Shown here: piece after piece, positions 30,575 to 45,631 of the stretch
Position numbering within the stretch: the first letter of the stretch is position 1
How the letters are laid out: the number at the start of each line of letters is the position of its first letter
From: an uncultured Gemmatimonadota bacterium
GTDB lineage: Bacteria; JAAXHH01
NCBI GenBank assembly: GCA_951812955.1
Contig: OX638340.1
Coordinates: 32,001 to 96,000, forward strand
Direction of reading: 5' to 3'
DNA: 64,000 nt
Made by a program: the position numbers and the translations under genes
Notes under the pieces: generated by a model
Seen by the model: only the letters and a program-made list of their open reading frames with translations
What the model was told of the DNA's origin: nothing
The model's database searches: none

Positions 30575-30591
30575 GGGCTTCCCTCTCCTCG

Positions 30592-31479: not shown

Positions 31480-31806
31480 GGGTCTTTGCTCCTTAAGGCT
31501 GGCGATTTGCTCACTTGCTCACTCGTTCGCGCCGCACGGCCGAGATTCGCACCGGATGAGGTTCTGCACCGGGCTAGGTCCTTCCAGGACTATTGCCTAC
31601 TCCAATAGTGACTAACCGGCATTTTAGTGACGAATAACGGCATGCCCAACGGATCACCAGTATAAAATACAATCTGGACCCGCGATTTCAAGGAGGATGC
31701 AGGGGACTTGCCAGAATGGATAGTGCTTGATGTTGGCATTGTCCGCTGTAATTTGCATGACCGTTCACCTGTTATACTAGTGGATACTGGTAGAGGAGTA
31801 TTGTGT

Positions 31807-32943: not shown

Positions 32944-33622
32944 CCGGGAGCCCGGGGCGCGATGCACGAACCATATATCCAGATTAAACTCATCCAAAAA
33001 CATGGCGCCAAGATTCCGGGGTTTTATTGGGTACGGGTATGGTTCGGAACTGATCAGACTTGACAACAACTTAGTTCAGAGATTAAACTGATGTACAAAT
33101 AACTTATAGAACGCGTCCAGGCCGTTCTCGCCTGGGCACTTGTATTTACACCGTAACAGGATCAGGCGGAACGATGATTCGGACGGTAAGACGCGGTATC
33201 GGTACGGTCGTGATTTGGTTGATCACAACGCTGGTTCGATTGGGGAAACGGTTAATGCGGAATCGGAAACGAGGCGTTGCCTAGCGGAGGATGTGGCGCG
33301 GGCAGCACGGTAGGCAACGAGGGTCGAACCGGAAATCGGATGACGATTGGCAAACGGCCGGTAGTAACGTTAATCACCGATACGATATGCCAGCCGGGGG
33401 GGTGGTACAATACCCGGCGGCGATACAATAGCCGACTACCACATCGAGTATGACTCGCGAGATGGGACCACAAAAGGCGGAAGGATTCGCCGGTTGTGGT
33501 TTTTTTTGTGCGTGGATCCCGGCTCGGTACCTTAGTCATCAAACAGCGTACTTATTCCGAGAACTATACCGATGCTTCCGCTCAATAGATATATAGTCGA
33601 CATACAAAACCATATTGAGACT

Positions 33623-34693
33623 CTATTGACGAGCATTCGTCAGGTCTTCCAATTCATCTTCTTTGTAGGTGGCAGGTACCCATTCACGCGACAGGTATGG
33701 CTTGTCAATTTCGTCCAACTGTAATGCATCACGGTACCATTTGGGTAGGCCAGCTGTCGGCGGATTATCTGGATGGTAAATCGGCCGGTTCCATTGCGGC
33801 ATGCCGACTTCCGGCCAATGATCCTTGTCGTACTTCATAGGATATACCCACCAGAGTCCCAAATTAGATTCAACCAGGAAAATCTCGTCAGGCAAATAAG
33901 TACGCCCAGCAAGTAGAGTTGGTAACTGGTTCCCGATGAGGTCGAATCTCGTATGAGCTGCGTCCTGGCTTTCTAAAACCAGGACGGTTCGTGCTCCATC
34001 AGCACGACACTTCGCCAACTTTGGAAACTTGTCAGCAAAAGCTCTACGGATCCGTTCCGTCCGACAGCTTTCCAAGTCTTCGGGATAGTCAAGTACCGTT
34101 TGAACAAAGCCCGGCTTTCGTCCTGCCTTAATCCCATTCCGCCACCTCAGCAATTCGACTGTACAGTTTATACACGAGAGATCGTCTTTGATGCTATCGT
34201 CGGGAAAACAGTAAAGGCTGATTGGGATTCCATGGCAGTCGATAGGTAAAGACAGTAAGGTATTCCTCTCGTACATGGTCTGGGCACTGCTTAGAATCCA
34301 TTCGGCAAGGTTCTTCAAAGCCCTAACTCGTTTGACTTTCCCCCTGGGCAGACAAACATCTGTTGGTACTTGAAGCACGTAGTACATGGGATCTGGTAAC
34401 TGGCCGGCGAGGCTTTGTATCAAGTACTGTCTAATCTCCACGACGGTTAACTCAGTTTTAATATTGTTCTCAAAGGGTTCAATTATTGTGTGCTCAATCG
34501 CGTATTCTTGTTCACCCAATTTCATACGCAATTCCACTGGCGGCCCTACTCGATCACTCTCAGGATGACGTATTTCAGATCGTTTCTTCCGAGTGCGTCT
34601 TTCCATAGTCTTCACAACCGCGTCGCACGCCTTGCCCTCGTTTTTAGGTACGATTACGTGCGGTTTACTGTATGGAGTCTCGTTATTCTTCAT
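33623..34693 (-). CDS. Hypothetical protein at the island edge
   Basis: 356 aa, low GC, no recognisable motifs. Standalone gene with intergenic regions of 450 nt or more on both sides. Confidence 0.4.
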   Translation of the reverse strand: MKNNETPYSKPHVIVPKNEGKACDAVVKTMERRTRKKRSEIRHPESDRVGPPVELRMKLGEQEYAIEHTIIEPFENNIKTELTVVEIRQYLIQSLAGQLPDPMYYVLQVPTDVCLPRGKVKRVRALKNLAEWILSSAQTMYERNTLLSLPIDCHGIPISLYCFPDDSIKDDLSCINCTVELLRWRNGIKAGRKPGFVQTVLDYPEDLESCRTERIRRAFADKFPKLAKCRADGARTVLVLESQDAAHTRFDLIGNQLPTLLAGRTYLPDEIFLVESNLGLWWVYPMKYDKDHWPEVGMPQWNRPIYHPDNPPTAGLPKWYRDALQLDEIDKPYLSREWVPATYKEDELEDLTNARQ

Positions 34694-35149
34694 CGTTTCC
34701 TAATCTAAATGTAATTAACGGAAAATCGCTGTTGATGGCTGAGTCAGACCCTTTCACCAGTCTTCCGATCCGGTAGCCTTCTGTAGCCTTCTACTGATTA
34801 CAACTTCCAAACCTAATCCAGGAGCCATGCGCCTTGTGGAGATTGCCCCTCTGCAGTAGGGCGGCAGGTCACGAAAGAATCCGTGGACCACTCCAGTAAG
34901 ATTTCACGTAGCATCGCCTACTCGCCCTGACTGTCAAATGCAACCTAGCCATCGGTAACACCAAGCGTGATTCACTAAAGACGGTAAGCCCATGAAGTCT
35001 TCACGGTTCAAAGAAACTCCGAATTCCCTTATCTACGGGTTTTAAAGGGTTATGTAGGGGAGGTGTTGGCAACTGCTAATGGATGTTTCAGAGGGTGGGA
35101 ATGCGGTGTTGAGGCAACTCATAATAGTCCTGGTGATATCTAATCCCCA

Positions 35150-35635
35150 TCACAAGTTGTTTGTACGTCGGAGTAATTTGGATGATACCCAACTCCATGC
35201 TTTCCAAACAAACGAGGTTTTAGTTAGTAAGCCTTGCTCTTTATCAGTCTCCATACGGTCATCGGAGTTGAAAAACCGGTTGATTTCCAATCTATGGTTA
35301 CTTCGCTCCTCAAGAATCTCACGTGTAGACCATCGGCGTGACCAATGAACTTTGTTATTTTCGATCCAATAATGTGATTGACACTCCTCACTCCAATTTC
35401 CCACAGAGGGCCGGAGACTTATAGATAACCCATTGTAAATAAACGCCCACCCAGTGGGATGTAACGGTGTGTTTATCTCGCTACCACACCCACATGCACA
35501 TTTATGGATTACAGTACGGTACTTCAGCGAAATGTAAATTCGACCGTCTTCTAAACGGTTGGGTACAACATCCGAGAAGACCGGGGTAAATTCAGTCGTT
35601 TTTGAAGACCGTTCTAATCGTTTTGTTTTGCACAC
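35150..35635 (-). CDS. Small Cys-rich (HKCACGCG) predicted metal-binding protein, last gene of the E1/Ubl operon
   Basis: 161 aa. Its start overlaps the E1 gene stop by about 22 nt. CxCxCx cluster plus two further Cys residues. Confidence 0.45.
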   Translation of the reverse strand: MCKTKRLERSSKTTEFTPVFSDVVPNRLEDGRIYISLKYRTVIHKCACGCGSEINTPLHPTGWAFIYNGLSISLRPSVGNWSEECQSHYWIENNKVHWSRRWSTREILEERSNHRLEINRFFNSDDRMETDKEQGLLTKTSFVWKAWSWVSSKLLRRTNNL

Positions 35636-36831
35636 TCGACGTAGTCCCGGTTTATTATCTTGTTTCCGTCCATTATATATCCGGAATCACCCTCATGAAC
35701 TAAGTCTTGAAATACACCTCGGATTTTCTTCCATTTTATTACTGCCAATGCTGCATTGAGGGCGTTTAGTTCTGCCAATTGTATGTTTCTTTCGTACTCT
35801 CCAACATCTCCTCCTGCCATATCGATACGATTCTTCTCTGTCACATGGCCCCTATTGCCCGGTTCACTAGTAGTCGTTCGGAGTATCCCGCCTAGTCTAT
35901 CTCCTTCACGATAAATCCCCATCCCGGTATCAATACAAACGCTCTCGGCATCTTCGCAAATCCTAAATATAGATTGTTTTATGGCATGGCCATCAATACA
36001 CAGGAAAACTGTATCGTGTCCTTTTAACTCATTAACGTTTTCCTCCACAATCTTAGTGGGATGTGCAACAATACCGCGACGCATACGACTGTAGCGTTCG
36101 AAATGAAACTCTGATTTGATGGGGCCTCCTTCCAATTCTTCAACCGCTACTGCTCCCGGTGCTCGAAATGAGTTGTGCTGAAGAAAACGGTCATCGTCAT
36201 ACAGATGGATCTCTTTAACCCATGTCTTAGCAACATAGTCGAGAACGTAAGCCCCGGTCCCACCTAAACCAACAATTGCTACAGTCTCCCCTTCCAATCT
36301 CGAAGATATATCTGTTGTATTTTGACGGGCTGACGCTGTTTCCATAAACGCGAATACATTCGAATTGCTCTCGGATTTCGCGACTTTCCACTTCTGCGCC
36401 GACGTTGACGAGTCGATTTTCCTAGCTTCTCGCGTTATGATTTCAATATAGGTTCTTACTTTGTGTTCATAATCTATGTACCGCCCGCCTTCCGGCTTGG
36501 CTGAAAACATATAGGTTAACTTTAGACCATTGCTCAGAATCTGGTTGTGGCCGCTTTCACCCAGAACCTCAAGCTTCTGTGAATTCCCGTCATACGGAAA
36601 TTCTCCTGTCCAATAGGCCACGTGGTCACCTGGTTGACTAGTTCTCTCGCCTCTGAGGTCAAGTTGCATTACTAATGTTGCCTCTGCAATTCCTCCAACA
36701 CTGGTAACATAAGGCACATCTTGTATTAGAAGGTAGCCATCTATAAATCGGATTGTATATCCGGATTCCTCTATGCGTTTCAGATCCGTATTACGAGCGA
36801 TCAGTGCGTGTGACATTGAATACTGTCCCAT
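35614..36831 (-). CDS. E1-like ThiF/MoeB-family adenylyltransferase with a cysteine-free N-terminal domain of about 190 aa (possible E2/UEV-like)
   Basis: ThiF Rossmann motif VAIVGLGGTGAYVLDYVAKTWVKEIHLYDDD. The N-terminal half contains no Cys. Confidence 0.7.
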   Translation of the reverse strand: MGQYSMSHALIARNTDLKRIEESGYTIRFIDGYLLIQDVPYVTSVGGIAEATLVMQLDLRGERTSQPGDHVAYWTGEFPYDGNSQKLEVLGESGHNQILSNGLKLTYMFSAKPEGGRYIDYEHKVRTYIEIITREARKIDSSTSAQKWKVAKSESNSNVFAFMETASARQNTTDISSRLEGETVAIVGLGGTGAYVLDYVAKTWVKEIHLYDDDRFLQHNSFRAPGAVAVEELEGGPIKSEFHFERYSRMRRGIVAHPTKIVEENVNELKGHDTVFLCIDGHAIKQSIFRICEDAESVCIDTGMGIYREGDRLGGILRTTTSEPGNRGHVTEKNRIDMAGGDVGEYERNIQLAELNALNAALAVIKWKKIRGVFQDLVHEGDSGYIMDGNKIINRDYVECAKQND

Positions 36832-37060
36832 CCTTTATCTTCACATTTTCGCCTTCGCTCAAACCACCTTCTTGTTCACGTCCACCACCTTCATAAAACA
36901 GCACTGTGTAACTAATTAAAGCGCCACGACCACCATCCGGGTAAGCTAAATCCACTATTTCGTCAAAAGTCACTTCGTCATGGTCTACGGTGTACGGACG
37001 TGCATTGATTATGATATCAAAACCCTTGTTCTCTAGACTTTGCTGAGGTTCTTTTTCCAT
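36791..37060 (-). CDS. Small beta-grasp ubiquitin-like protein, multiubiquitin-family-like
   Basis: About 89 aa from the internal ATG (MEKEPQQ). Pattern FDIIINARPYTV..VTFDEIVDLA...ENVKIKDGTVFNVTRTDRS resembles the Multi_ubiq family. Its 3' end overlaps the E1 start. Confidence 0.45.
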   Translation of the reverse strand: MEKEPQQSLENKGFDIIINARPYTVDHDEVTFDEIVDLAYPDGGRGALISYTVLFYEGGGREQEGGLSEGENVKIKDGTVFNVTRTDRS

Positions 37061-37089
37061 ATTAATGGCTTCCGCCTCCTTATCGGGAT

Positions 37090-37629
37090 TCAGGCTATGT
37101 CCCTGATGCCCAATGTCAACCCTCCTGAGCGAACGAATTCCCTCCATAGAGGTGACAACAATTGAGCTGCAACTGGAGCTTCACGAGAAGAAAGTATAAT
37201 TTGTAATTCTCTCCTTTCATCTAAAGGTGCCTCTTTCCATATATTGTACAAATCCCAGCAGTTTCCGTCCGTCAAAATACCGTACCTTACCCCGACCTCA
37301 GTACAGTATGTCAACATCTGAGTGCGGTGTGTGTTGAGATCCTCGTTCAGTTTTTTTGCCTCGACTAGAACCAGTGGCTTTCTATCTTCTCCAAGTAATG
37401 CGTAGTCAACACGCTGATTCGCTTGATTTCCTGTACGGAATTCAACTTCTACATGCTCTACGATGCTAACGTCCCAAGCAAGGGCTTTCAATACCGGATC
37501 CACTAATACATTCCTTGTCCTTATCTCATTTTTCTGGAGGTATTCTCCGTGTTTTACTATTACCTCACGTGCTCGTTGTAGCGTGCTTACCAAGGGTTCT
37601 AACAAATCAGTCATAAACTCCCTCACCAC
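37090..37629 (-). CDS. PD-(D/E)XK restriction-endonuclease-like protein (HsdR N-terminal-domain-like), first gene of the operon
   Basis: 179 aa. RVDYALLGEDRKPLVLVEAKKL gives the D...EAK catalytic motif, followed by QMLTY...GILTDG. Confidence 0.6.
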   Translation of the reverse strand: MVREFMTDLLEPLVSTLQRAREVIVKHGEYLQKNEIRTRNVLVDPVLKALAWDVSIVEHVEVEFRTGNQANQRVDYALLGEDRKPLVLVEAKKLNEDLNTHRTQMLTYCTEVGVRYGILTDGNCWDLYNIWKEAPLDERRELQIILSSREAPVAAQLLSPLWREFVRSGGLTLGIRDIA

Positions 37630-37982
37630 TAAGTGAGCGATTCCCCAGTTGAACTTCTCTACTATAATATACGGCTAGCGGATCTGTACATATTACTTAA
37701 CGTATGATTCGTATGGAACTCTGTCAAATAGATTTCAACTTGAATACAATGTCATTGCTGAATAGATCGTAGCCATATCTCATCTACACCATTGAGTAGC
37801 ATATTGGATTACGCGCGGCGGTTTGGTAATATCGCGCATTCAGGTAGTTGGCGATGCACTTGGCACGCCGCACGGTCCCTGCAGATACGCCACAGAGCCA
37901 ACTCAGGCATGCACGAGTCATTTAACATCAGCCCTAGAAAATGCCCTTGACATCATATGATTTATGAGTCATGTTATGATGT

Positions 37983-38351
37983 ATGAAATGGGAAGTCGAT
38001 TTCCATCCGGCGTTTGATCCCGAGTTTGCCGCCATGGCACTGAAGGTGCAGGACGAACTGCTTACACAAGCAAAGCTCTTGGAGGAGTTCGGACCAACAT
38101 TAGGTCGTCCGCGGGTGGATACGCTAAATGGTTCGCGGCATGCTAATATGAAGGAACTTCGTTTTACTATGACTGGCGGAGTCTGGCGGGTCGCATTTGC
38201 TTTCGACCCCGAACGTAAGGCCATGCTACTGGTTGCCGGCGATAAATCGGGAGTCGGTGAACAACGGTTCTACCAGCAACTGATCAGGAAGGCGGATCAC
38301 CGCTTCGATCTACATCTTGAACTGTTGAAAGCTGAGAGGAGGCCAAGATGA
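37983..38351 (+). CDS. Type II toxin, RelE/HigB-like (phage Gp49-like addiction-module killer)
   Basis: 122 aa. KELRFTMTGGVWRVAFAFDPERKAMLLVAGDK matches the HigB/Gp49 family pattern. Confidence 0.7.
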   Translation: MKWEVDFHPAFDPEFAAMALKVQDELLTQAKLLEEFGPTLGRPRVDTLNGSRHANMKELRFTMTGGVWRVAFAFDPERKAMLLVAGDKSGVGEQRFYQQLIRKADHRFDLHLELLKAERRPR

Positions 38352-38698
38352 GTACGTTGACGGACAGAATGGACAAGCTGTCCCCGTCCCGACGGAAGAA
38401 GGTAGAAGAACGGGCCAGGGCGTTGATCGCCGAAGAAATGTCGCTACGGGACTTGCGCAAGGCTCGAAAGCAGACGCAGATGCGGGTCGCCGAGAAGCTC
38501 GGGATCAATCAGGAAAACGTGTCCCGCCTTGAACAGCGCAGTGATCTCTTGATTTCCACCCTCAGCGGCTATGTCGAGGCGATGGGGGGTAAACTGAGTC
38601 TGGTGGCGGAGTTTCCGGACCGGCCGCCAGTGGCGCTGACTGGCATTGCGGCACTCGACGACCTTTTGGAGCGGCCTGCAGAATCTCGTACCGGATGA
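38348..38698 (+). CDS. HTH (XRE-family) antitoxin, HigA-like
   Basis: 116 aa. HTH region MSLRDLRKARKQTQMRVAEKLGINQENVSRLEQ. 4-nt ATGA overlap with the toxin gene. Confidence 0.7.
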   Translation: MSTLTDRMDKLSPSRRKKVEERARALIAEEMSLRDLRKARKQTQMRVAEKLGINQENVSRLEQRSDLLISTLSGYVEAMGGKLSLVAEFPDRPPVALTGIAALDDLLERPAESRTG

Positions 38699-38964
38699 AG
38701 AGAGGATCGCGATATGGTCGCAGGCGGGTCGCTAAACGTCGAAAACACACCGGTTCCCGGGTGTCGCGAATCTCAGATTTGGGATATATAACTACAGTGA
38801 GGCGGGACCGGCCTTGGCCTTAGTGGCAAAACGCCTACGATCGATCAGTTCGCATTCCACGCTTGTGAAGATTCTCTTGCACAGCACGTTGTCATAGTAG
38901 TCGTTTACCGAGCCCATAGATGGCCAGATGCCAGCCGTGCAAACCGGTGCCCGTCGGAGCGAAC

Positions 38965-40140
38965 TCATCCACTAGGCGTTCGTCCACCGACCTCCGTCGA
39001 GATTTGTAGAATATACATCAGTGACGGATCGGATTTGAGGAGAATGGCCCGCAGCTGTTCGTCGGTTAGCTTTGTCTCCAATTCGTGGACCCGGTTGAAA
39101 AACTCGATCAGCTTCACCAGTGCTTTGGTGTCTTGGATCACGAATTCAGACAGCGGATCGTTGTACAACTCCCGACAGACGTACAGTACCCTCGCTCGAC
39201 GGGTTGGCTTGCCCTCATGTAGCAGATCCTTCTGATTAGCTAGGCTCAGAATCCATGCAGTAACTAGATCGTCGGGGGCTAATCGTCGGAGCAAATGGTT
39301 CCACAGCTCCCTGAGGGAGGTCAGAATGTGCCGTGCCCGGTCGGCACTGTTTCCATTCAGGGCATCTCGAGCGCCGATGTATGGCCCAGCGAGACTTGGA
39401 TCGACCTGTTGCAGCAGAATGATGCAGTCGGATGTTTCTAACTCTGCCTCGGCGACAAACTGGAATTCCGTTTCGGCCTCTTCTTCGTCCCGTTCACCCC
39501 AGGGGCGAAGAGTTTTGAGCGCGAAGCTGGTAGTGTAGATTTCACGAGTGGCGCCTGGCAAAACGAAAGCAGGTAAGCGCGTAATGTCCGAGACCTCCCG
39601 CAGTGAACCGGCCAAACTTCCATATGAGGCAGCCACCTGGGCAATCGAACTCTCCAGCCCTGAAATGGCGGGCATCTTGATTTGGAATTGACTCCCTATG
39701 GCCTTGAAATCGATGTTCGCCATGAGTCGTTCCGTGGCGATCAATTGCAAAGAAGTATCGCCCAGGGCCAACTTAGCGGATGCTTGAAGCTGGAAAAGTT
39801 GGGAAACTCCCTGTTGAAGAAGATTCGACTGGTCAAGCCAGGATTCATGAGTGGTATGCAGACTCTCGGCAATCCAGTTAGAAGCGGTAGTCTGTTTGAT
39901 CACATCATGCCAGTGTTGATTGGCGTTGGCGATCTCTTTAATCCCGGCCACTGCTTCAGGTATTTCGAGGGCACGACTGATTTCCATTTGATGGAGACGG
40001 AATGGTTCTATCGTGCGTTCTAACTGTTCTATAACGCCTAGGTAGGATGGCTTGGCCAAACGGTTGGAAGCCTCCATGTCCTGACGGAGTTTGCCGATGG
40101 CGGATTTTGCGGACATCAGATCTTCGGAGAGAATATCCAT
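38965..40140 (-). CDS. Hypothetical protein, third gene downstream of SIR2-HerA
   Basis: 391 aa soluble protein with no recognised motifs. 83 nt downstream of herA on the same strand. Confidence 0.45.
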   Translation of the reverse strand: MDILSEDLMSAKSAIGKLRQDMEASNRLAKPSYLGVIEQLERTIEPFRLHQMEISRALEIPEAVAGIKEIANANQHWHDVIKQTTASNWIAESLHTTHESWLDQSNLLQQGVSQLFQLQASAKLALGDTSLQLIATERLMANIDFKAIGSQFQIKMPAISGLESSIAQVAASYGSLAGSLREVSDITRLPAFVLPGATREIYTTSFALKTLRPWGERDEEEAETEFQFVAEAELETSDCIILLQQVDPSLAGPYIGARDALNGNSADRARHILTSLRELWNHLLRRLAPDDLVTAWILSLANQKDLLHEGKPTRRARVLYVCRELYNDPLSEFVIQDTKALVKLIEFFNRVHELETKLTDEQLRAILLKSDPSLMYILQISTEVGGRTPSG

Positions 40141-40223
40141 ATTTTGATGTTAGTCCCGGAGTTGTCAAATTGCAAGGCTGTGTGGATGTTTGGGTATGCT
40201 GGTACCTTCAACCTCAATTGAAA

Positions 40224-41915
40224 TCATCGGCGCTGATATCTCCAACGCTTAACAACATCTTGAATTTCCGAGTCAGGAGTTGCATCGTTTTGCCACCCCT
40301 TATCGAAGTCAATGTCATTTGATTTCGGTAGCTGATCAGGATTTAAATCACGTATTAGGATGCGCGACGGCAACATTGCAGCTTGGCCAACGAAAATTGC
40401 CTCTTGCCTCCGTAAACCAGAAAGCATCTTTGTCAGACCAGACATCGAATCTGGTAGAATGGATCGAACATGCTCCCTGTCGGCGTCATTGGTGATTCGC
40501 ATAACAATCCAGCTATTGCATTGTGAAAGAACCGTTGCCTCAACTTCGCTTGGGCGCTGGGATACCAACAGGAGCCCTACACCATACTTTCGACCTTCCT
40601 TAGCAACACGCCTGATTGCTTCTTGAGCAGCCTCATATTGCGCTTCGCCCCGATTTGGAACGTAGCGATGAGCTTCTTCACATACCAGTAAAACTGGGTC
40701 AGATTCGCGCTCTGATTGGGTTTGCCAAATCTTCAGATTGAATAAAGTTCGAGCAATTACCGCACTTGATACACCGGCTACTTCATTGGGGACACCGGAC
40801 AGATCTACTATTCTTGGTTGAGACCCATCCCCGATAAGTTGCTTGATAACAGTAAGAAAAGGATCGTTATTTTCCCATTCTGACATCATGAATCGGAGTC
40901 GAGCATCGGTCATTAAGACTTCGAGTTTTTGGAGTATCGAGTTATGAGAATCTTGTTTGCTGAGCGCAGTTGGCTTATCCGCTTCAATCTTTTCTATAAG
41001 CCTCGATAACTTGTATGGTACGGGGGAATCAACAGTTATGAGATTGACATCAAGACCTAGCTGATGCGCACCTTCTTCGCGGGCGTAGATTAAGGCTCTC
41101 TTTACGATGTTAGCTTGTGAGGTCGCAACAAATTCAGTTCTTCCGATCAACAAGGCAACCGTCTCTTGAAAGTTCAAGAGCCAGTATGGAAGTGTTAGTG
41201 TTCCGTCATCAGAGGAAAGTTTAGTATGATCAGTAAATGCGCTGCCGTATTCACCATGGGGGTCGAGTATAATAACCCTGGGCTTCCATTTCGTATATGA
41301 TCTAGTGTCACCTCTATCAAGAATACTGTGAATGATAGCTGCGACCGTACCTGACTTGCCAGCGCCAGTGGAGCCGAGAACGGCTGTGTGTTTACCAAGT
41401 AGTTCATTCAAATCTGCAAAACATGGGGTCCCGCCTGAACCTACATGCTGCCCGAGCTGAACAACGGCACTTTTCGCTTTCCCGTAAATAAAACGCAATT
41501 CAGCTTTTGGAGTCAGATAGACAGTTTGCTGTGGGAGTGGATAGGTTGATACCCCACGTTCAAAAAAAAGCTTCCATTCACTAGATGTCCCATGAATCCA
41601 TTCGCCTTCGCCGAACAGGTCTGCTTCGACGATTCTTTCATCCGAAGATGATGCTGACACCAATCCTCGTTCTGCTTGAAATTCTGATTTCATCCTTAGT
41701 CGGCCGACCAACGCGTAGACGGTTTGACGCCCGAAATGGACTTTGACAATGGAACCAAATTGTCCGATGGGATAGGTTTCTCCCGCATACACACGCGAGA
41801 GTTCAGAAAGAGTCGGATTTAACTCGGCAACAAGGTGAGATCCATCAACTTCAATTATCTTGCCGATTGCCAGATTCTCAATTGGCTCATTGGGATTGCG
41901 AGTCGAAACACTCAT
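40224..41915 (-). CDS. HerA/FtsK-like ATPase (DUF87) of a SIR2-HerA defence pair
   Basis: Walker A LGSTGAGKSGT. Walker B LLVCEEAHRY, followed by LLLVSQRPSEV. 563 aa. 4-nt start/stop overlap with the sir2 gene. Confidence 0.8.
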   Translation of the reverse strand: MSVSTRNPNEPIENLAIGKIIEVDGSHLVAELNPTLSELSRVYAGETYPIGQFGSIVKVHFGRQTVYALVGRLRMKSEFQAERGLVSASSSDERIVEADLFGEGEWIHGTSSEWKLFFERGVSTYPLPQQTVYLTPKAELRFIYGKAKSAVVQLGQHVGSGGTPCFADLNELLGKHTAVLGSTGAGKSGTVAAIIHSILDRGDTRSYTKWKPRVIILDPHGEYGSAFTDHTKLSSDDGTLTLPYWLLNFQETVALLIGRTEFVATSQANIVKRALIYAREEGAHQLGLDVNLITVDSPVPYKLSRLIEKIEADKPTALSKQDSHNSILQKLEVLMTDARLRFMMSEWENNDPFLTVIKQLIGDGSQPRIVDLSGVPNEVAGVSSAVIARTLFNLKIWQTQSERESDPVLLVCEEAHRYVPNRGEAQYEAAQEAIRRVAKEGRKYGVGLLLVSQRPSEVEATVLSQCNSWIVMRITNDADREHVRSILPDSMSGLTKMLSGLRRQEAIFVGQAAMLPSRILIRDLNPDQLPKSNDIDFDKGWQNDATPDSEIQDVVKRWRYQRR

Positions 41916-43072
41916 CTTTCACCTCCAAGCAGGCGGGTCAAGTTTTCAAATTTCCACCAAAGTAGGTCGGTGTCGGATGGTGCTTTTTTGCTGCCGTGAA
42001 AGAAGCCAAGATTAGCAAAAATAAGTACTTGCTCGGTTATGGAGTCATCATCATGCCATCTCTTAAGTAGGCCTTTTGGTTCATCATCAGAGGTAAACAC
42101 CACGACGGTAAGACGACCGTCAGATTCACGTAACGCCCGGTCGATTTCGAGATTGATGTGTGAATCACCAAAGCGGTACCCGCACGTAATCAGTATTTTT
42201 TGCGAACCTGAAACAGCCGTTAGTGCTTTCCGCCCATATTCTGCCAATTGAGCATAGGGGTCTCTTTGAGTTTCACGGTATTTGGTGGATGCTGGCCAAA
42301 TGAGAATCTTGTTTTTACCCCCGGATTGTACTTTGACATTACCGGAAACTCGGCGAGGGAGTGGATCACCATCGAACTCGCACCAGTTTATTGAACCGTG
42401 CAGTTTGAAGATCCTCGACGAGAGTCCATCACGCTCAAAATCCGCAGGATTCCACCATCCGGTGACTCCGCCTTCCAGACCATCTGAAAAGGAAACTCGC
42501 TCAAGCGCGAGTGCATCTTCAAGAAGCGTGTCGTAGTTGAGGCAGAGATAGTCCACACGATCAAAGTTGCCCGTTTTACCAGGCCGAATTGGGCGATGAA
42601 CCGCCTTTACGAATTTGCGATGAACCACTACATCGATTTGCTCGTCATTGTGCTCGATTATATTGGAAATGATACGCTTTATATCTTCTGCAGATTCCCT
42701 TAGTTGCTGGCCAGAATATCGATTGTCTTTGATAGTGATCTGGTCATCGGTTGCGCCTCGCTCCGCCCTTCTTTCAGCGATGGCCAGAAGGTCGATTATT
42801 TCACTAAGGTAGTCCTCAATATCTGGATCACTCGCACCGGTGAAACCTTCCTTAATTCCCTTGAGGATCTCTGTGGTATAGTCACTCAAAGCACCTATTT
42901 CCAGTACTTTAGTAGTTAGTTCTTCCATCAATGGTAAACCCGCGCATTTGCTACAACCTGCACCAATTAGGAACACTTTCCCATGCTGGACCATAAGTTC
43001 GTCTAGCGTATCATAAGCTTCAACTAATTGAGGGGTATCCCATATTGCGTCAAGATTGTCAGGTGCGCTCAT
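41912..43072 (-). CDS. SIR2-family (DHS-like NAD-binding) protein, putative NADase effector
   Basis: VFLIGAGCSKCAGLP (a sirtuin GAGxS-like motif) and KLHGSINW. 386 aa. Confidence 0.75.
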   Translation of the reverse strand: MSAPDNLDAIWDTPQLVEAYDTLDELMVQHGKVFLIGAGCSKCAGLPLMEELTTKVLEIGALSDYTTEILKGIKEGFTGASDPDIEDYLSEIIDLLAIAERRAERGATDDQITIKDNRYSGQQLRESAEDIKRIISNIIEHNDEQIDVVVHRKFVKAVHRPIRPGKTGNFDRVDYLCLNYDTLLEDALALERVSFSDGLEGGVTGWWNPADFERDGLSSRIFKLHGSINWCEFDGDPLPRRVSGNVKVQSGGKNKILIWPASTKYRETQRDPYAQLAEYGRKALTAVSGSQKILITCGYRFGDSHINLEIDRALRESDGRLTVVVFTSDDEPKGLLKRWHDDDSITEQVLIFANLGFFHGSKKAPSDTDLLWWKFENLTRLLGGER

Positions 43073-43405
43073 ATTAACCCTTTCTCATTTTATCATACTC
43101 CAATTTCCTGACTTCATTGCTATTCATGTGTCGCTATGCCATTAACTTCAACAACACGTCGTCTAGACCAAACCGATCATTCAAGGATTTAGCTATCCGA
43201 ACGAGTTTCGGACTTGGTCCGGAGTAAATAGAGAATCAGTCGCCCAAAGTGAGAGAATGTGTGACGGACAGGGAAAATCGACGATGTGGAACGGTTGTTC
43301 GAGAGGACATTAACAGACGCAATCTCTTAGAAACAAGTGCAAAAAACCCGTCATCCCCGAGAATGAGCCAGACCCTAGAGAGACGGGTTGTCTTTTTAGA
43401 ATTGA

Positions 43406-43766
43406 TGGAGGTGGGGGGAATCGAACCCCCGTCCGAAAGTGCCTAAGCGGAAACTTCTACATGCGTAGCCTGTTGTTTAATCTCGTTCCGGAGAACTCCA
43501 GCAGGCAGGATTTAACCGGAACCAGCCTCAGTTGAGTCTCGCCTGGCGCCCTGAGGCGCGACGCCCGGCCAGCCTGCTTTATCGACGCTTTTGACCATCC
43601 CGCAGGCGGGGCTGATCAAAAACGGGCCGGCCTAAGTTACCTTAGGCAGCCATTGCATACGAAGGTTCGTCTGCAGATAAATTGTTCCCAATGGTTTTAC
43701 GAGGTTATCGGGGACCTCGGCACGCGATTCCCGCCGCATCCACTCCCGTCGAATCCTTTCACCCCC
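43406..43766 (-). ncRNA. ssrA: tmRNA (SsrA); the predicted tag reading frame encodes ADEPSYAMAA followed by TAA
   Basis: On the minus strand the 5' end reads GGGGGTGAAAGGATTCGACGGG and the 3' tRNA-like end reads TTTCGGACGGGGGTTCGATTCCCCCCACCTCCA. The internal frame is GCA GAC GAA CCT TCG TAT GCA ATG GCT GCC TAA. Confidence 0.85.
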
Positions 43767-43880
43767 ATGTCAAAGAACATAGGCCATTTGGGCGCTTCTG
43801 TCAAATTCGCCCGGCCGCGATGGTTCGGTTGCATCATGATACGGCAGCACCATGGTACGGCTGCATCGCGGTTTGGCCAG

Positions 43881-43953
<73 letters not shown>

Positions 43954-43959
43954 ATTCCA

Positions 43960-44032
43960 TGAGCGCGGAAGGAATCGAACCTTCGACCCACAGATTAAAA
44001 GTCTGTTGCTCTGCCAACTGAGCTACGCGCCC
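43960..44032 (-). tRNA. tRNA-Lys (anticodon TTT)
   Basis: Minus strand: GGGCGCGTAGCTCAGTTGGCAGAGCAACAGACTTTTAATCTGT...GGTTCGATTCCTTCCGCGCTCA. Confidence 0.85.
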
Positions 44033-44131
44033 TCGCAGGCGTAGCATAATAAGCGATTACACCTACTTCGTCAACCGATTTCCGGTTAGGACAGGATGGC
44101 CAATGAGCACGAACGCGGGGCCCGCGAAACC

Positions 44132-45409
44132 TTACATGAAAATGGTCGCGTCTCGATGCGAACCCACGGAAACGAGGTCCACTTTGGCCTTCACCAGTTC
44201 CGATATGCGCTCGATGTATGCCTGGGCTTCCTTCGGCAATCCGTCCCAGGTCCGTATGTGGCCGGTGGGCCGATCCCAGCCCTCCATCTCCTCGTATACG
44301 GGCTCGCATCGGCGCAGGACGTTCGCGTCGTTGGGCAGATGAGGGACCACCTCGCCGTTCAGCCTGTATCCGACGCACAGCCTCAGCGTCTGGAGCGTGT
44401 CCAAGGTGTCGAGGCGGGCGAGGGCCAGCCGGTCGATGCCGTTCACCATGACCGCGTAGCGAACCACCATGGCGTCGAACCAGCCGCACCGGCGCGGGCG
44501 GCCCGTCGTAGCGCCGAATTCACCCGCCATGCGCCGGAATTCGTCTCCCCACCTGGAAGGAAACTCAGTGGGGAAGGGGCCGTTGCCTACCCGGGTGGTG
44601 TAGGCCTTGGCCACGCCGATGACTTCGTCGATGCGGGTGGGACCGACGCCGGCGCCCATGCAGGCGGCACCCGTGGTCGTGTTGGAGGACGTGACGTAGG
44701 GATAGGTCCCGTGGTCCACGTCCAGCAGGGTGCCCTGGCTGCCCTCGAACAAGATCTCCTTGTCGGCATCAATAGCGTCGTTGAGATATTCCGACGTATT
44801 CGTCACGAATGGACCGATCCGGTCAGCAAATGCCATGTACTCCTCGATGATCCGGTCGGCGTCGAGCGTCTCGGCCTGGTATATGGCGTCGAGAATCCTG
44901 TTCGCCTCGTCGATATTGCGCTGAAGCTTCTCGCGAAGCACGGACCGATCGTGCAGGTCGCCGATGCGAATACCCTTGCGGGCAGCCTTGTCCGCATAAG
45001 CGGGACCGATACCCCTTCCCGTGGTACCGATCCGCTCTTCCTCCTGCAACTGTTCTTCCCCGACCCGGTCGATCAGCTTGTGGTACGGCATGATAACGTG
45101 GGCGTTGTGGCTGATGAAAAGGCGTCCCTCCACGTCGATGCCGTGAGACCCGAGCATCTCGATCTCTTCCATCAGCGCTTCCGGATCGATCACCGTGCCG
45201 TTGCCGATGACGCAGGCCTTGTCCTGCCGGAGGATGCCGACTGGTATGAGGTGGAGGATGTACTCCTGGTCTCCGATCTGAACGGTGTGCCCGGCATTGG
45301 CCCCGCCCTGGAACCGCACGACGATATCGGCCCGCTCACTCAGGAAATCGACGATCTTTCCCTTGCCTTCATCTCCCCACGCTGCGCCTACGAGTATGCG
45401 AACGGCCAT
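44132..45409 (-). CDS. purA: Adenylosuccinate synthetase
   Basis: N-terminal GAAWGDEGKGKIVD P-loop, GGANAGHTV, and 425 aa length. Confidence 0.9.
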   Translation of the reverse strand: MAVRILVGAAWGDEGKGKIVDFLSERADIVVRFQGGANAGHTVQIGDQEYILHLIPVGILRQDKACVIGNGTVIDPEALMEEIEMLGSHGIDVEGRLFISHNAHVIMPYHKLIDRVGEEQLQEEERIGTTGRGIGPAYADKAARKGIRIGDLHDRSVLREKLQRNIDEANRILDAIYQAETLDADRIIEEYMAFADRIGPFVTNTSEYLNDAIDADKEILFEGSQGTLLDVDHGTYPYVTSSNTTTGAACMGAGVGPTRIDEVIGVAKAYTTRVGNGPFPTEFPSRWGDEFRRMAGEFGATTGRPRRCGWFDAMVVRYAVMVNGIDRLALARLDTLDTLQTLRLCVGYRLNGEVVPHLPNDANVLRRCEPVYEEMEGWDRPTGHIRTWDGLPKEAQAYIERISELVKAKVDLVSVGSHRDATIFM

Positions 45410-45482
45410 CTTTCTTCCATCTCCCTGTTGATTCCCGGACTGTCTGAATCCCGCTTCGAAGTCGACCGGTATCCGGGTCCAT

Positions 45483-45517
45483 AAACAATAAAAGGGCGAG
45501 TCATAAGACCCGCCCTC
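45483..45517 (-). terminator. Intrinsic-terminator-like hairpin on the minus strand (GGGCGGGTC-TTAT-GACTCGCCC followed by TTTTATTGTTT), 75 nt upstream of purA
   Basis: 9-bp GC-rich stem plus T-tract, read from the reverse complement. Confidence 0.4.
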
Positions 45518-45631
45518 AAGACCGTTAGATCTTACAGTTCATTGTATGCGGTATGGGCGTGGGAGGTCAAGAAAAAAACGGCTGAAAAACGGGCAGGTTC
45601 ACGGTACCGGCGCGCCGCCGAATAGATCGGT

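What the first reader, a model, noticed from the sequence alone, without database searches (positions are those of the whole stretch)
40224..43072. SIR2-HerA anti-phage pair on the island
Seen: a 386-aa SIR2-fold protein (GAGCS...LHGSINW), then, with a 4-nt ATGA overlap, a 563-aa HerA/DUF87 ATPase (Walker A GSTGAGKS, Walker B LLVCEEAH). Established: SIR2-HerA two-gene systems are NAD+-depleting abortive-infection defence systems. The low GC content and island context fit horizontal acquisition.
Basis: partly seen in the sequence, partly recalled or inferred. Interest (0 to 1): 0.7.

Follow-up and report, generated by a model that had tools for sequence, protein, structure and literature searches.

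The report
SIR2–HerA anti-phage defence gene pair
This is an intact copy of a known two-gene bacterial anti-virus system (a SIR2 NAD+-destroying enzyme plus a HerA ATPase ring). It sits in a swappable "defence slot" next to the tmRNA gene, so it is a new member of a known kind; its only unusual feature is a third, uncharacterised gene that travels with it.

Summary
On the minus strand, a 386-aa SIR2_2 protein (41912-43072) and a 563-aa HerA/DUF87 ATPase (40224-41915) overlap by ATGA, and all quoted motifs are present. Defence-specific PADLOC models match both proteins full-length (SIR2 1.7e-68, HerA 1.6e-138). A profile of the SIR2 clade finds only three solved proteins, the SIR2 subunits of the Paenibacillus, S. 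aureus and E. coli (Nezha) SIR2-HerA complexes. The catalytic equivalents N179/D181/H225 in SIR2, and K187 and E413/E414 in HerA, are conserved. HerA lies directly downstream of SIR2 in 79 of 80 homologous genomic loci from more than 15 phyla. The conjugation-ATPase rival fails. The island claim also holds: GC is about 0.46 against about 0.62, and close relatives carry BREX-like genes, IS elements or almost nothing at the same site. The pair belongs to a diverged, untested clade, below NCBIfam equivalog cut-offs and about 20% SIR2 identity to the nearest solved homologue, so NAD+ depletion is inferred and not shown. One extra: a 391-aa pP_pnuc_1 gene downstream is co-transferred with the pair. 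The same gene also ends SbcC-, helicase- and GmrSD-containing defence operons elsewhere.

The parts
41912..43072 (-). SIR2 (SIR2_2 family) gene, 386 aa; the predicted NADase effector. It has the Rossmann loop G37-A-G-C-S41 and the catalytic equivalents N179, D181 and H225.
   Evidence: ORF. Pfam PF13289 6.6e-12. PADLOC SIR2 PDLC04088 1.7e-68, residues 21-382 on model positions 11-384 of 390. PDB 8w9l (PsSIR2) 1.1e-12 with the single sequence and 5.5e-19 with the clade profile. N179/D181/H225 align to PsSIR2 N163/D165/H212 (PMC11472057) and are invariant in 21 clade members.
40224..41915 (-). HerA (DUF87) ASCE/RecA-like ATPase gene, 563 aa. Walker A is G181-S188 (K187), Walker B is L409-H416 (E413/E414), and there is an SQRP motif at 452-455.
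   Evidence: ORF. Pfam DUF87 4.7e-34, full-length on the model. PADLOC HerA PDLC04105 1.6e-138, residues 14-562 on model positions 9-573 of 576. PDB 9c1m 2.1e-70, 8wiv (PsHerA) 4.2e-68, 8xau 4.3e-62, Nezha 8j4u 1.2e-32. K187 aligns to PsHerA K173, whose K173A mutant loses defence (PMC11472057). 227 of 563 positions are at least 97% conserved in 74 clade HerAs.
41912..41915 (-). ATGA stop/start overlap between SIR2 and HerA, which suggests translational coupling. A GGAGG ribosome-binding site lies 6 nt upstream.
   Evidence: Sequence read. The same junction coordinates occur in 59 of 79 homologous loci (tblastn coordinates).
43073..43176 (-). Upstream untranslated and presumed promoter region that is co-transferred with the cassette.
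   Evidence: The blastn alignment to L001 (Kiritimatiellia) and L003 (Planctomycetales) runs to 43176 at about 80-83% identity. No promoter was called above chance, so the function is inferred.
38965..40140 (-). 391-aa pP_pnuc_1 (PF18165) gene, 83 nt downstream of HerA on the same strand. It is co-transferred with the pair in this sub-lineage and is a possible accessory component. Its membership of the system is not established.
   Evidence: Pfam 9.8e-21 on residues 254-368. It is part of the roughly 80%-identical 3-gene block shared with L001 and L002, and is present in the sister genomes L081 and L082. It is absent after HerA in the other clade members, for example L005. No terminator-like site lies between HerA and this gene.
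33604..43405 (.). Low-GC variable defence island (hotspot) that holds the pair. It is bounded by the 3' end of the tmRNA gene (43406-43766, minus strand) and by the core M20 peptidase gene (31708-32943).
   Evidence: GC profile. tmRNA and two tRNA-Lys genes. Comparison with sister genomes and close relatives.

Best explanation
This is a functional-looking two-gene SIR2-HerA anti-phage system from a diverged, widely transferred clade. It is lodged in a tmRNA-adjacent defence hotspot of an uncultured FCB-group bacterium.

Shown here:
- Both genes are intact, co-oriented and joined by an overlapping stop/start.
- The SIR2 NAD-binding loop, the SIR2 catalytic Asn/Asp/His and the HerA Walker A/B motifs are conserved.
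- The SIR2 is related specifically to the SIR2 subunits of characterised SIR2-HerA complexes.
- The gene pair is kept together across phyla.

Inferred from the characterised homologues (PMC11472057, PMC11514289, PMC13434337):
- HerA forms a hexameric ring that docks onto a SIR2 ring (12- to 14-mer) to give a megadalton complex.
- Complex formation and a phage cue release SIR2 autoinhibition.
- SIR2 hydrolyses NAD+, and HerA ATPase and DNA-directed activities contribute. Cellular ATP acts as a brake in the studied systems.
- NAD+ collapse stops growth of the infected cell, so phage do not propagate (abortive infection).

The trigger, and which nucleic-acid activity this clade has (helicase plus nuclease, or nickase), are unknown.
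For: - ORFs and junction.
- PADLOC SIR2 1.7e-68 and HerA 1.6e-138, both full-length.
- Pfam SIR2_2 and DUF87.
- NCBIfam best names are 'SIR2 family anti-phage-associated protein' and 'anti-phage-associated helicase HerA'.
- The clade profile of SIR2 hits only 8w9l (Paenibacillus, 5.5e-19), 8yhx (S. aureus, 2e-17) and 8j4u (E. coli Nezha, 3.2e-5) among 177,635 distinct PDB sequences.
- Even a weak AF2 model finds only PsSIR2 chains at E of about 1e-7.
- HerA matches defence HerAs at 2e-70 to 3e-26.
- N179/D181/H225 correspond to PsSIR2 N163/D165/H212, and K187 to PsHerA K173 (PMC11472057). They are invariant in the clade.
- HerA is directly downstream of SIR2 in 79 of 80 loci from more than 15 phyla.
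- Plasmid homologues are SIR2 and HerA neighbours.
- Island context: low GC and variable cargo at the same site in close relatives, including a near-empty site.
Against: - There is no experimental data for this clade.
- Both proteins score far below the NCBIfam equivalog cut-offs: 41 bits against a cut-off of 500 for SIR2, and 300 against 850 for HerA.
- SIR2 is only about 19-21% identical to PsSIR2 in the fold alignment.
- The AF2 model is poor over the catalytic region, with pLDDT below 50 for residues 152-277.
- PsHerA residues that bind SIR2 are not conserved: F39 aligns to R41 and Y60 to R63 in the pairwise alignment. Complex geometry therefore cannot be transferred residue by residue.
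- HerA is marginally closer to the HerAs of HerA-DUF4297 systems than to PsHerA, so HerA alone does not define the system.
- Subtypes differ in their activities and cannot exchange HerA subunits (PMC13434337).
Confidence: 0.85

Rival explanations
1. The functional unit is three genes, not two. SIR2-HerA works together with the downstream 391-aa pP_pnuc_1 protein, for example as an added nuclease effector or as a sensor or regulator. This would be a three-component variant of SIR2-HerA.
For: - The gene is on the same strand, 83 nt after HerA, with no terminator-like site between them.
- About 80% nucleotide identity to Kiritimatiellia and Desulfobulbus loci spans exactly the three genes, 38999-43176.
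- The arrangement recurs in L001-L003 and L081/L082, and in 8 of 59 informative metagenomic loci, with a conserved 76-89 nt spacing.
- The same gene also ends a second, distantly related SIR2-HerA(714 aa)-SbcD-SbcC operon type.
Against: - Most members of this SIR2-HerA clade lack the gene. The nearest two-gene relative, L005, has 77% SIR2 and 90% HerA identity and no such gene, and no third gene recurs in 79 loci.
- The gene is more often attached to other operons: SbcC-like 23, DEAD helicase 11, GmrSD-like 9, against HerA 8 of 59. It therefore behaves as an independent, promiscuous module.
- Characterised SIR2-HerA systems work as two genes (PMC11472057, PMC11514289, PMC13434337).
- Its fold and activity are unknown: the model has pLDDT 47.6 and there is no PDB relative.
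Confidence: 0.25
2. The HerA-like protein is a conjugative or type-IV-secretion ATPase (VirB4/TraC or TrwB/TraD coupling protein), or an FtsK-like translocase, and the locus is a transfer module.
For: There are weak local matches to TrwB_AAD_bind (7.6e-07, residues 175-231), FtsK_SpoIIIE (1.1e-06, residues 150-200), SXT_TraD (2.2e-04) and EccCb (6.6e-05), all confined to P-loop or Walker regions.
Against: - DUF87/HerA matches the whole model at 4.7e-34, and PADLOC HerA matches at 1.6e-138.
- The best solved relatives are all defence or repair HerAs; FtsK reaches only E 4e-4.
- No T4SS, relaxase or pilus gene is in the island.
- Plasmid homologues are annotated as HerA-like or ATP-binding proteins next to SIR2 genes.
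Confidence: 0.01
3. The pair is a housekeeping DNA-repair or regulatory module: an archaeal-type HerA end-resection helicase, with the SIR2 acting as a protein deacetylase. It would not be an immune system.
For: HerA matches the NCBIfam DNA double-strand-break-repair HerA models (8.5e-39 and 6.1e-32) and Sulfolobus HerA 4d2i (5.2e-20). SIR2 domains include deacetylases.
Against: - The repair HerA scores are far weaker than the anti-phage HerA scores, and there is no NurA, Mre11 or Rad50 neighbour.
- The SIR2 is of the SIR2_2 (PF13289) type, and its only solved relatives are SIR2-HerA subunits.
- The locus is accessory: it is absent from close relatives with 93-98% purA identity, has low GC and is shared across phyla at about 80% nucleotide identity.
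- It sits among other defence genes, including a toxin-antitoxin pair, a Type II Bub operon and a PD-(D/E)xK gene.
Confidence: 0.03
4. The pair is a decaying, non-functional relic of a defence system.
For: The island lacks an integrase and att repeats. Sister genomes show gene fragments in the same hotspot, such as a 133-aa methyltransferase fragment in L081 and IS elements in L094. Decayed copies of the clade exist elsewhere (L059, L065 and the E. coli remnant L177).
Against: - Both ORFs are full-length relative to their clade: 386 aa against 382-387, and 563 aa against 563-600.
- All catalytic and nucleotide-binding motifs are intact.
- The overlapping junction and the ribosome-binding site are preserved.
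- The sister genome keeps the same three intact genes at 88-90% nucleotide identity.
Confidence: 0.05

Closest known systems
Paenibacillus sp. 453MF SIR2-HerA (PDB 8W9L, 8WIV, 8WLD; PMC11472057)
   Same: This is the best solved relative of the SIR2 (5.5e-19 with the clade profile) and one of the two best for HerA (4.2e-68). It has the same gene order, SIR2 of similar size (381 against 386 aa), aligned catalytic N/D/H residues and an aligned Walker A lysine. [quoted passage not shown]
   Different: SIR2 identity is only about 19-21%. PsHerA is 696 aa with a C-terminal arm domain (aa 576-696), whereas this HerA is 563 aa. The PsHerA residues that bind SIR2 are not conserved: F39 aligns to R41 and Y60 to R63. 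The hosts belong to different phyla.
E. coli SIR2-HerA / Nezha (PDB 8J4U, 8SU9; described in PMC13434337 and PMC11472057)
   Same: It is also a two-gene SIR2 plus HerA abortive-infection system. The SIR2 is detectable with the clade profile (3.2e-5) and HerA at 1.2e-32.
   Different: It is much more distant than the Paenibacillus system. EcSIR2 has a unique C-terminal extension (PMC11472057). This clade is absent from 5,426 complete E. coli genomes, apart from a 420-nt HerA remnant.
S. aureus Sir2-HerA (PDB 8YHO, 8YHX; PMC11514289)
   Same: SIR2 matches at 2e-17 with the profile, and HerA at 3.1e-26. The catalytic Asn/His dyad (N226/H287) corresponds to N179/H225 here. NADase activation is HerA-dependent.
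   Different: SaSir2 is a dimer in solution and its complex is about 900 kDa. Sequence identity is low.
HerA-DUF4297 two-gene defence system (PDB 9C1M, 8XAU; bioRxiv 10.1101/2024.10.24.620088, PMC11291478)
   Same: Its HerA is the single best solved match to this HerA (2.1e-70 and 4.3e-62). It uses the same logic of a HerA ring that activates a partner effector.
   Different: The partner there is a DUF4297 (Cap4-like) nuclease. Here the partner is a SIR2_2 protein.
E. coli Sir2-HerA types I-III (PMC13434337)
   Same: They show that Sir2-HerA is a family of deeply diverged subtypes (13-22% identity) with distinct phage spectra. The window's pair is another such diverged lineage.
   Different: It could not be placed relative to types I-III. 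The paper's sequences and supplements are not held, and no intact E. coli member of this clade exists in the collection. The type III trigger (phage SSB) and nickase gating cannot be assumed here.

Membership tests
SIR2-HerA anti-phage systems (broad family) | A SIR2-domain protein of the prokaryotic SIR2_2 type, with a Rossmann NAD-binding loop and catalytic Asn/(Asp)/His | tested here: met
   PF13289 6.6e-12. GAGCS is at 37-41. N179/D181/H225 align to PsSIR2 N163/D165/H212 (PMC11472057) and are invariant in 21 clade members.
SIR2-HerA anti-phage systems (broad family) | A HerA/DUF87 ASCE ATPase with intact Walker A and Walker B motifs | tested here: met
   DUF87 4.7e-34. GSTGAGKS is at 181-188 and LLVCEEAH at 409-416. 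These motifs are conserved in at least 97% of 74 clade HerAs. K187 aligns to PsHerA K173.
SIR2-HerA anti-phage systems (broad family) | The sir2 and herA genes are adjacent and co-oriented, and the pairing is conserved among homologues | tested here: met
   There is an ATGA overlap. HerA is directly downstream of SIR2 in 79 of 80 loci from more than 15 phyla, and 59 of these have the identical junction.
SIR2-HerA anti-phage systems (broad family) | Both proteins match defence-system-specific profiles | tested here: met
   PADLOC SIR2 PDLC04088 1.7e-68 and HerA PDLC04105 1.6e-138, both near full-length.
SIR2-HerA anti-phage systems (broad family) | The SIR2 subunit is related specifically to the SIR2 subunits of characterised SIR2-HerA complexes, and not to ThsA, DSR2 or pAgo-associated SIR2 | tested here: met
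   The clade profile against PDB gives exactly three hits, all SIR2-HerA SIR2 subunits. In the fold search DSR2 appears only at E above 1.
SIR2-HerA anti-phage systems (broad family) | Assembly into a SIR2 ring plus HerA hexamer supramolecular complex | not testable with these tools
   No multimer prediction is available. The monomer model of SIR2 is poor (pLDDT 58.5).
SIR2-HerA anti-phage systems (broad family) | HerA-dependent NADase activity, NAD+ depletion on infection, and phage protection | not testable with these tools
   This needs biochemistry and phage challenge. No literature on this clade was found.
Paenibacillus-type SIR2-HerA (PMC11472057) | The HerA beta-barrel residues that bind the SIR2 alpha-1 helix (F39, Y60, I100, Q110) are conserved | tested here: inconclusive
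   In the pairwise alignment, F39 aligns to R41 and Y60 to R63, so they are not conserved. Identity in this region is low, however, and the interface may have co-evolved.
NCBIfam equivalogs SIR2_antiphage (NF042942) and HerA_antiphage / HerA_antiphage_2 (NF042943, NF042944) | A score at or above the curated equivalog cut-off | tested here: not met
   SIR2 scores 41.2 bits against a cut-off of 500. HerA scores 299.8 against 850, and 173.8 against 800. The pair is related to these reference subfamilies but is not a member of them.
E. coli Nezha subtype | Close sequence relationship to EcSIR2 and EcHerA (8J4U) | tested here: not met
   SIR2 is detectable only with a profile, at 3.2e-5. HerA matches at 1.2e-32, against 4e-68 for PsHerA.
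HerA-DUF4297 system | The partner gene encodes DUF4297 (a Cap4-like nuclease) | tested here: not met
   The partner is SIR2_2. No DUF4297 hit was found in any island protein.
Type IV secretion / conjugative ATPases (VirB4/TraC, TrwB/TraD) | A full-length match to VirB4/TraC or coupling-protein profiles, with T4SS genes as neighbours | tested here: not met
   There are only P-loop-local matches at E 1e-4 to 1e-7. The neighbours are defence, toxin-antitoxin and ubiquitin-like genes.
HerA-NurA DNA end-resection module | A NurA nuclease (and Mre11/Rad50) encoded beside HerA | tested here: not met
   No NurA, Mre11 or Rad50 domain is present in the island. The repair-type HerA models score lower than the anti-phage HerA models.

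The most novel reading that the evidence does not exclude
The 391-aa pP_pnuc_1 protein downstream of HerA could be a portable accessory component, a nuclease-like effector or a sensor/regulator, that plugs into several unrelated NTPase-based defence operons: this HerA clade, SIR2-HerA-SbcDC, DEAD/DEAH helicase operons and PglZ/GmrSD operons. The window's locus would then be a three-component SIR2-HerA variant. Its output would not be limited to NAD+ depletion, and the pP_pnuc_1(+DUF2188) unit would be a previously unrecognised shared module of bacterial immunity.
Probability: 0.25. Interest if true: 0.6.

Novelty: new member of a known kind. Interest (0 to 1): 0.3.

Why it matters
On its own this is a routine defence-system annotation. 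It adds one more SIR2-HerA pair, in a lineage with no cultured representative (nearest named relatives are Latescibacteria and Gemmatimonadota MAGs).

It has three modest points of value:

- **An untested major lineage.** The clade is widespread: 1,923 relatives at E <= 1e-5, in more than 15 phyla at 50-82% SIR2 identity. It is nevertheless far from every experimentally studied SIR2-HerA. SIR2-HerA subtypes differ in trigger and in enzymatic gating (PMC13434337), so this lineage is a gap in current knowledge.
- **A natural comparison set.** The tmRNA-adjacent site is a clean example of a defence hotspot. SIR2-HerA, BREX-like genes, IS debris or an almost empty site are found in genomes with 93-99% purA identity.
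- **A candidate shared module.** The co-transferred pP_pnuc_1 gene ends four different kinds of NTPase-containing defence operons at about 75% protein identity across phyla, and no paper in the searched library mentions it. That makes it a candidate shared accessory module worth testing.

Tried and rejected
- **Island boundaries.** I searched 32000-44100 for direct repeats of the tmRNA 3' end. Nothing of 14 nt or more beyond tRNA-like self-similarity was found, and no integrase ORF is present. The island therefore has no recognisable integration scars.
- **Exact look-up of the SIR2 protein's contig.** It is not on record. The sister genomes were reached through the third gene instead.
- **AlphaFold2 of SIR2 with 21 clade sequences.** The model was poor (pLDDT 58.5, catalytic region below 50). 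It was used only as weak corroboration.
- **AlphaFold2 of the pP_pnuc_1 protein with 36 sequences.** The model was unusable (pLDDT 47.6, pTM 0.29), so no fold search was run. The profile against PDB found nothing.
- **HEPN idea for pP_pnuc_1.** It was based on the invariant R277-x4-H282 motif in an all-helical region. No HEPN-clan Pfam hit appeared even at E <= 10, so it stays as speculation only.
- **Linking the clade to E. coli types I-III.** The paper's supplements are not held. E. coli genomes contain only a 420-nt HerA remnant beside IS30/IS911.
- **Promoter and terminator scan of 38600-43450.** The counts were not above the shuffled expectation. I used only the absence of a terminator-like site between HerA and the third gene, and only weakly.
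- **Search for a conserved third gene across the clade.** None was found.
- **Pfam on the recurrent genes downstream of pP_pnuc_1 (461 aa, 226 aa, 244 aa).** There were no families.
- **Literature search for PF18165/pP_pnuc_1.** No papers mention it.


Full report
**1. The observation**

The six-frame ORF list shows two minus-strand ORFs at exactly the reported coordinates. One is a 386-aa protein at 41912..43072 and the other a 563-aa protein at 40224..41915.

Reading the junction on the minus strand gives ...GGAGGTGAAAG-ATGA-GTG... The SIR2 stop (TGA) overlaps the HerA start (ATG) by four bases, and a GGAGG ribosome-binding site lies just upstream.

All quoted motifs are present. In SIR2, GAGCS is at 37-41 and LHGSINW at 224-230. 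In HerA, GSTGAGKS is at 181-188 and LLVCEEAH at 409-416. The segment has GC 0.46-0.47, against 0.58-0.66 in the flanking chromosome. The only omission is that the genes lie on the minus strand.

**2. What the two proteins are**

- **Pfam:** SIR2_2 (PF13289, 6.6e-12) and DUF87, the HerA central domain (PF01935, 4.7e-34, whole model).
- **PADLOC:** the defence-system models match both proteins almost end to end. SIR2 PDLC04088 scores 1.7e-68 (residues 21-382 on model positions 11-384 of 390). HerA PDLC04105 scores 1.6e-138 (residues 14-562 on model positions 9-573 of 576).
- **NCBIfam:** the best names are 'SIR2 family anti-phage-associated protein' and 'anti-phage-associated helicase HerA'. Both scores are far below the equivalog cut-offs: 41 bits against 500, and 300 against 850. 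The pair is therefore related to NCBI's reference subfamilies but is not a member of them.

Against solved structures, HerA matches defence HerAs strongly:

| PDB entry | System | E-value |
|---|---|---|
| 9c1m | HerA-DUF4297 | 2.1e-70 |
| 8wiv | Paenibacillus sp. 453MF SIR2-HerA | 4.2e-68 |
| 8xau | HerA-DUF4297 | 4.3e-62 |
| 8j4u | E. coli Nezha | 1.2e-32 |
| 8yho | S. aureus | 3.1e-26 |
| 4d2i | Sulfolobus HerA | 5.2e-20 |

The identities of these entries were taken from the papers that deposited or cite them.

The SIR2 alone matches PsSIR2 (8w9l, 1.1e-12) and SaSir2 (8yhx, 1e-9). A profile built from 21 clade members finds exactly three distinct PDB sequences among 177,635. They are the SIR2 subunits of the three structurally characterised SIR2-HerA systems: Paenibacillus at 5.5e-19, S. 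aureus at 2e-17 and E. coli Nezha at 3.2e-5. This is the strongest single piece of evidence that the SIR2 belongs to the HerA-partnered lineage, and not to the ThsA, DSR2 or pAgo-associated SIR2 lineages.

An AlphaFold2 model of the SIR2 was poor (mean pLDDT 58.5, residues 152-277 below 50). Even so, its only significant Foldseek matches were PsSIR2 chains (E of about 1e-7, TM 0.37-0.43, 19-21% identity), followed by the S. aureus complex. I treat this as weak corroboration only.

**3. Catalytic residues**

In the alignment, query N179 and D181 pair with PsSIR2 N163 and D165, and H225 pairs with H212. The Paenibacillus paper names these as the putative catalytic residues (PMC11472057). They also correspond to the S. 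aureus N226/H287 dyad, whose H287 mutation abolishes NADase activity (PMC11514289). All three, and the GAGCS loop, are invariant in the 21-sequence clade alignment.

In HerA, K187 aligns with PsHerA K173, and the K173A mutant loses T7 protection. Across 74 full-length clade HerAs, 227 of 563 positions are at least 97% conserved. These include Walker A (G181-S188), Walker B (L410-H416, with E413/E414) and SQRP at 452-455.

By contrast, two of the PsHerA residues that contact SIR2 are not conserved: F39 aligns to R41 and Y60 to R63. This fits the report that HerA subunits cannot be swapped between subtypes (PMC13434337).

**4. Is the pairing real and conserved?**

The SIR2 has 1,923 relatives at E <= 1e-5, and more than 120 cluster representatives at 58% identity or higher.

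A scan of one genome per species returned 80 loci from more than 15 phyla. These include Kiritimatiellia, Desulfobulbus, Planctomycetes, Verrucomicrobia, Mariprofundus, Acidobacteria, Chloroflexi, Cyanobacteria, Spirochaetes, Bacteroidetes, and Serratia and Proteus among the Enterobacterales. SIR2 identity across them is 49-82%.

tblastn with the window's proteins found a HerA homologue directly downstream of SIR2 in 79 of the 80 loci. In 59 of these the overlapping junction is identical. The exception, L065, has a truncated SIR2. HerA (61-91% identity) is consistently better conserved than SIR2 (49-82%).

**5.

T4SS, FtsK and TraD models match only the P-loop neighbourhood: TrwB_AAD_bind at 7.6e-07 on residues 175-231, FtsK_SpoIIIE at 1.1e-06 on residues 150-200, and SXT_TraD at 2.2e-04. 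No neighbouring gene encodes a secretion or transfer function.

Among 72,556 plasmids, homologues are annotated 'ATP-binding protein' or 'helicase HerA-like' and sit beside 'SIR2 family protein' genes. Examples are CP049732 and the Citrobacter and Enterobacter plasmids. A Shewanella baltica plasmid carries a member of this very clade. The conjugative-ATPase rival is rejected.

**6. Island context**

A tmRNA gene (43406-43766, minus strand) and two tRNA-Lys genes lie immediately upstream of the SIR2 promoter region. purA and the glycine-cleavage genes follow.

The low-GC stretch runs from about 33,600 to 43,400. No integrase and no att-like repeat were found.

The host is uncultured. The nearest named purA relatives are Candidatus Latescibacteria (72%) and Gemmatimonadota (70%) MAGs.

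In close relatives, the interval between purA/tRNA-Lys/tmRNA and a core M20 peptidase holds very different cargo:

| Locus | Relationship to the window | Cargo at the site |
|---|---|---|
| L081 | sister genome (~88% nt identity over the shared segment) | SIR2-HerA-pP_pnuc_1, a methyltransferase fragment and a 356-aa gene |
| L082 | sister genome (~90% nt identity over the shared segment) | as L081, plus a 1,227-aa SIR2_2 protein and DUF4238 |
| L093 | purA 98% | a BREX-like cluster (BrxC/PglY, PglX-type methylase, AAA_15) |
| L094 | purA 97% | IS3 and mutator transposases plus fragments |
| L096 | purA 93% | only a nucleotidyltransferase pair |

At DNA level, the window and L081 share 38801-45577 (88%), 33604-34672 and 30002-32958. 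Positions 34673-38800 are specific to the window.

So the site is a variable defence hotspot and the SIR2-HerA pair is accessory. Further support comes from the roughly 80% nucleotide identity of the cassette to loci in Kiritimatiellia, Desulfobulbus, Planctomycetales, Limisphaerales and Mariprofundus.

**7. A third gene**

A 391-aa ORF (38965-40140) lies 83 nt downstream of HerA on the same strand. Its C-terminal third matches Pfam PF18165, 'predicted pPIWI-associating nuclease' (9.8e-21). No terminator-like site separates it from HerA.

The block of about 80% nucleotide identity shared with L001 and L002 spans exactly SIR2-HerA plus this gene (38999-43176). The Mariprofundus locus L005 shares only the two-gene part (40228-42994). 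No third gene recurs in the other clade members.

The protein family is unusually uniform. There are 672 relatives, with more than 120 cluster representatives at 74-79% identity and 384-387 aa, from several phyla.

Its contexts show that it is not specific to SIR2-HerA. Among 59 metagenomic loci with an identifiable upstream same-strand gene, that gene is:

| Upstream partner | Loci | Gap to pP_pnuc_1 |
|---|---|---|
| SbcC/Rad50-like | 23 | mostly 8 nt |
| DEAD/DEAH helicase | 11 | mostly 25-31 nt |
| GmrSD/DUF262-like (behind PglZ) | 9 | 5-6 nt |
| HerA of this clade | 8 | 76-89 nt |
| something else | 8 | varies |

Where the flank reaches far enough in the SbcC-type loci, the operon reads SIR2-HerA(714 aa)-SbcD-SbcC-pP_pnuc_1. 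A 77-aa DUF2188 gene follows in 25 loci. It is absent from the window.

The fold could not be predicted (pLDDT 47.6), and there is no solved relative. No NCBIfam or PHROG family matches, and the only PADLOC match is weak (Aga_Nuclease, 3.8e-07). No paper in the library names the family. An invariant R277-x4-H282 motif recalls HEPN ribonucleases, but no HEPN profile matches, so this remains speculation.

My reading is that this is a promiscuous, mobile accessory gene of NTPase-based defence operons. Whether it works with SIR2-HerA here is open; I put the probability at about 0.25.

**8. Mechanism**

*Shown here:* the anatomy, the intact active-site and nucleotide-binding residues, the specific kinship to SIR2-HerA subunits, the conserved pairing, and the accessory, horizontally transferred nature of the locus.

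*Inferred from the characterised systems* (PMC11472057, PMC11514289, PMC13434337):
- A HerA hexamer binds a SIR2 ring.
- This assembly, together with a phage cue, relieves SIR2 autoinhibition.
- NAD+ is hydrolysed, while the HerA ATPase and DNA-directed activities contribute.
- ATP acts as an inhibitory checkpoint.
- The infected cell stops growing.

*Unknown for this clade:* the trigger, the oligomeric state, and whether the nucleic-acid activity is helicase plus nuclease (as in the Paenibacillus system and Nezha) or a nickase (as in E. coli type III).

**9. Comparison and novelty**

The closest characterised system is the Paenibacillus sp. 453MF SIR2-HerA. The relationship is remote: about 20% SIR2 identity, and this HerA lacks the 120-residue C-terminal arm of PsHerA.

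The clade is not in E. coli, apart from a decayed fragment, so it is not obviously one of the tested E. coli subtypes.

The clade is already captured by PADLOC models, so a standard defence-annotation pipeline would flag it.

Verdict: a new member of a known kind, and an ordinary annotation of modest interest (0.3). The only less ordinary element is the co-transferred pP_pnuc_1 gene.

Noticed in passing
window 38965-40140 (-); L083, L088-L092, L097-L176: The pP_pnuc_1 (PF18165) gene family is very uniform, about 75% protein identity across phyla. It sits as the last gene of at least four kinds of defence-like operon: SbcC-like 23, DEAD helicase 11, GmrSD-like 9 and HerA 8, out of 59 loci. A 77-aa DUF2188 gene often follows. 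No paper in the searched library mentions the family.
   Followed up: partly
L083 1-9402; also L084, L110, L114, L130: There is a six-gene operon type, SIR2(>443 aa)-HerA(714 aa)-SbcD-SbcC-pP_pnuc_1-DUF2188. Its SIR2 and HerA are only 25% and 33% identical to the window's proteins. It may be an extended SIR2-HerA variant with an SbcCD nuclease.
   Followed up: no
window 35150-37147 (-): This three-gene operon matches the Type II Bub (6E.2) bacterial ubiquitination-like architecture. It has a Multi_ubiq Ubl (36791-37147, 118 aa), a DUF6791-ThiF E2-E1 fusion (35614-36831, 405 aa; NCBIfam PRK06153-type, 4.8e-130) and a DUF6527/BubE protease (35150-35635, 161 aa), with no JAB peptidase. It lies in the segment specific to this genome (34673-38800).
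   Followed up: partly
window 37090-37629 (-): A stand-alone 179-aa protein with an HSDR_N / PD-(D/E)xK nuclease domain (Pfam 2.8e-07). Its 3' end overlaps the start of the Multi_ubiq ORF by 58 nt, so it may be an added fourth gene of the Bub-like operon. HSDR_N fragments also occur at the same hotspot in L094 and L095.
   Followed up: no
window 37983-38698 (+): A HigB/HigA-like toxin-antitoxin pair (Gp49/DUF891, 122 aa, plus an HTH, 116 aa, with a 4-nt overlap). Its GC (0.56) is higher than the rest of the island. Nearly identical copies (HigA 99%, HigB 95%) follow the pP_pnuc_1 gene in metagenomic locus L097.
   Followed up: no
window 33623-34693 (-): A 356-aa ORF with no Pfam, NCBIfam, PHROG or PADLOC family, at the far edge of the island. 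It is conserved at 83-87% in the sister genomes (L081, L082) and is present in L094, so it stays at the hotspot while the other cargo changes.
   Followed up: partly
window 43406-44032 (-); L081, L082, L093, L094, L096: The interval between purA/tRNA-Lys x2/tmRNA and the M20 peptidase gene is a variable defence hotspot in this lineage. It holds SIR2-HerA, a BREX-like cluster, IS debris or almost nothing in genomes with 93-99% purA identity. The window has no integrase and no att repeat.
   Followed up: yes
L001-L080: Within this clade HerA is consistently more conserved (61-91% identity) than its SIR2 partner (49-82%).
   Followed up: no
L005 12852-15800; L042; fragments in L026, L028, L045: In another sub-lineage of the clade, a gene of about 1,000 aa starts at or overlaps the HerA stop (gap -21 to +3). 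It may be a different accessory third gene. It was not characterised.
   Followed up: no
L177 (E. coli EC2, NZ_CP058571.1 4497973-4498384): Fifteen complete E. coli genomes carry a 420-nt remnant of a HerA of this clade (70% nucleotide identity). It is unannotated or lies beside a 'PhoH family' pseudogene, next to IS30 and IS911, between pgaD and fecE. It is a decayed copy of the system.
   Followed up: partly
window 25774-28452 (-): An 892-aa protein with a C-terminal PD-(D/E)XK nuclease domain (PDDEXK_1, 2.7e-26), resembling AddB/RecB-family proteins. It lies in the high-GC core outside the island and was seen only in passing.
   Followed up: no
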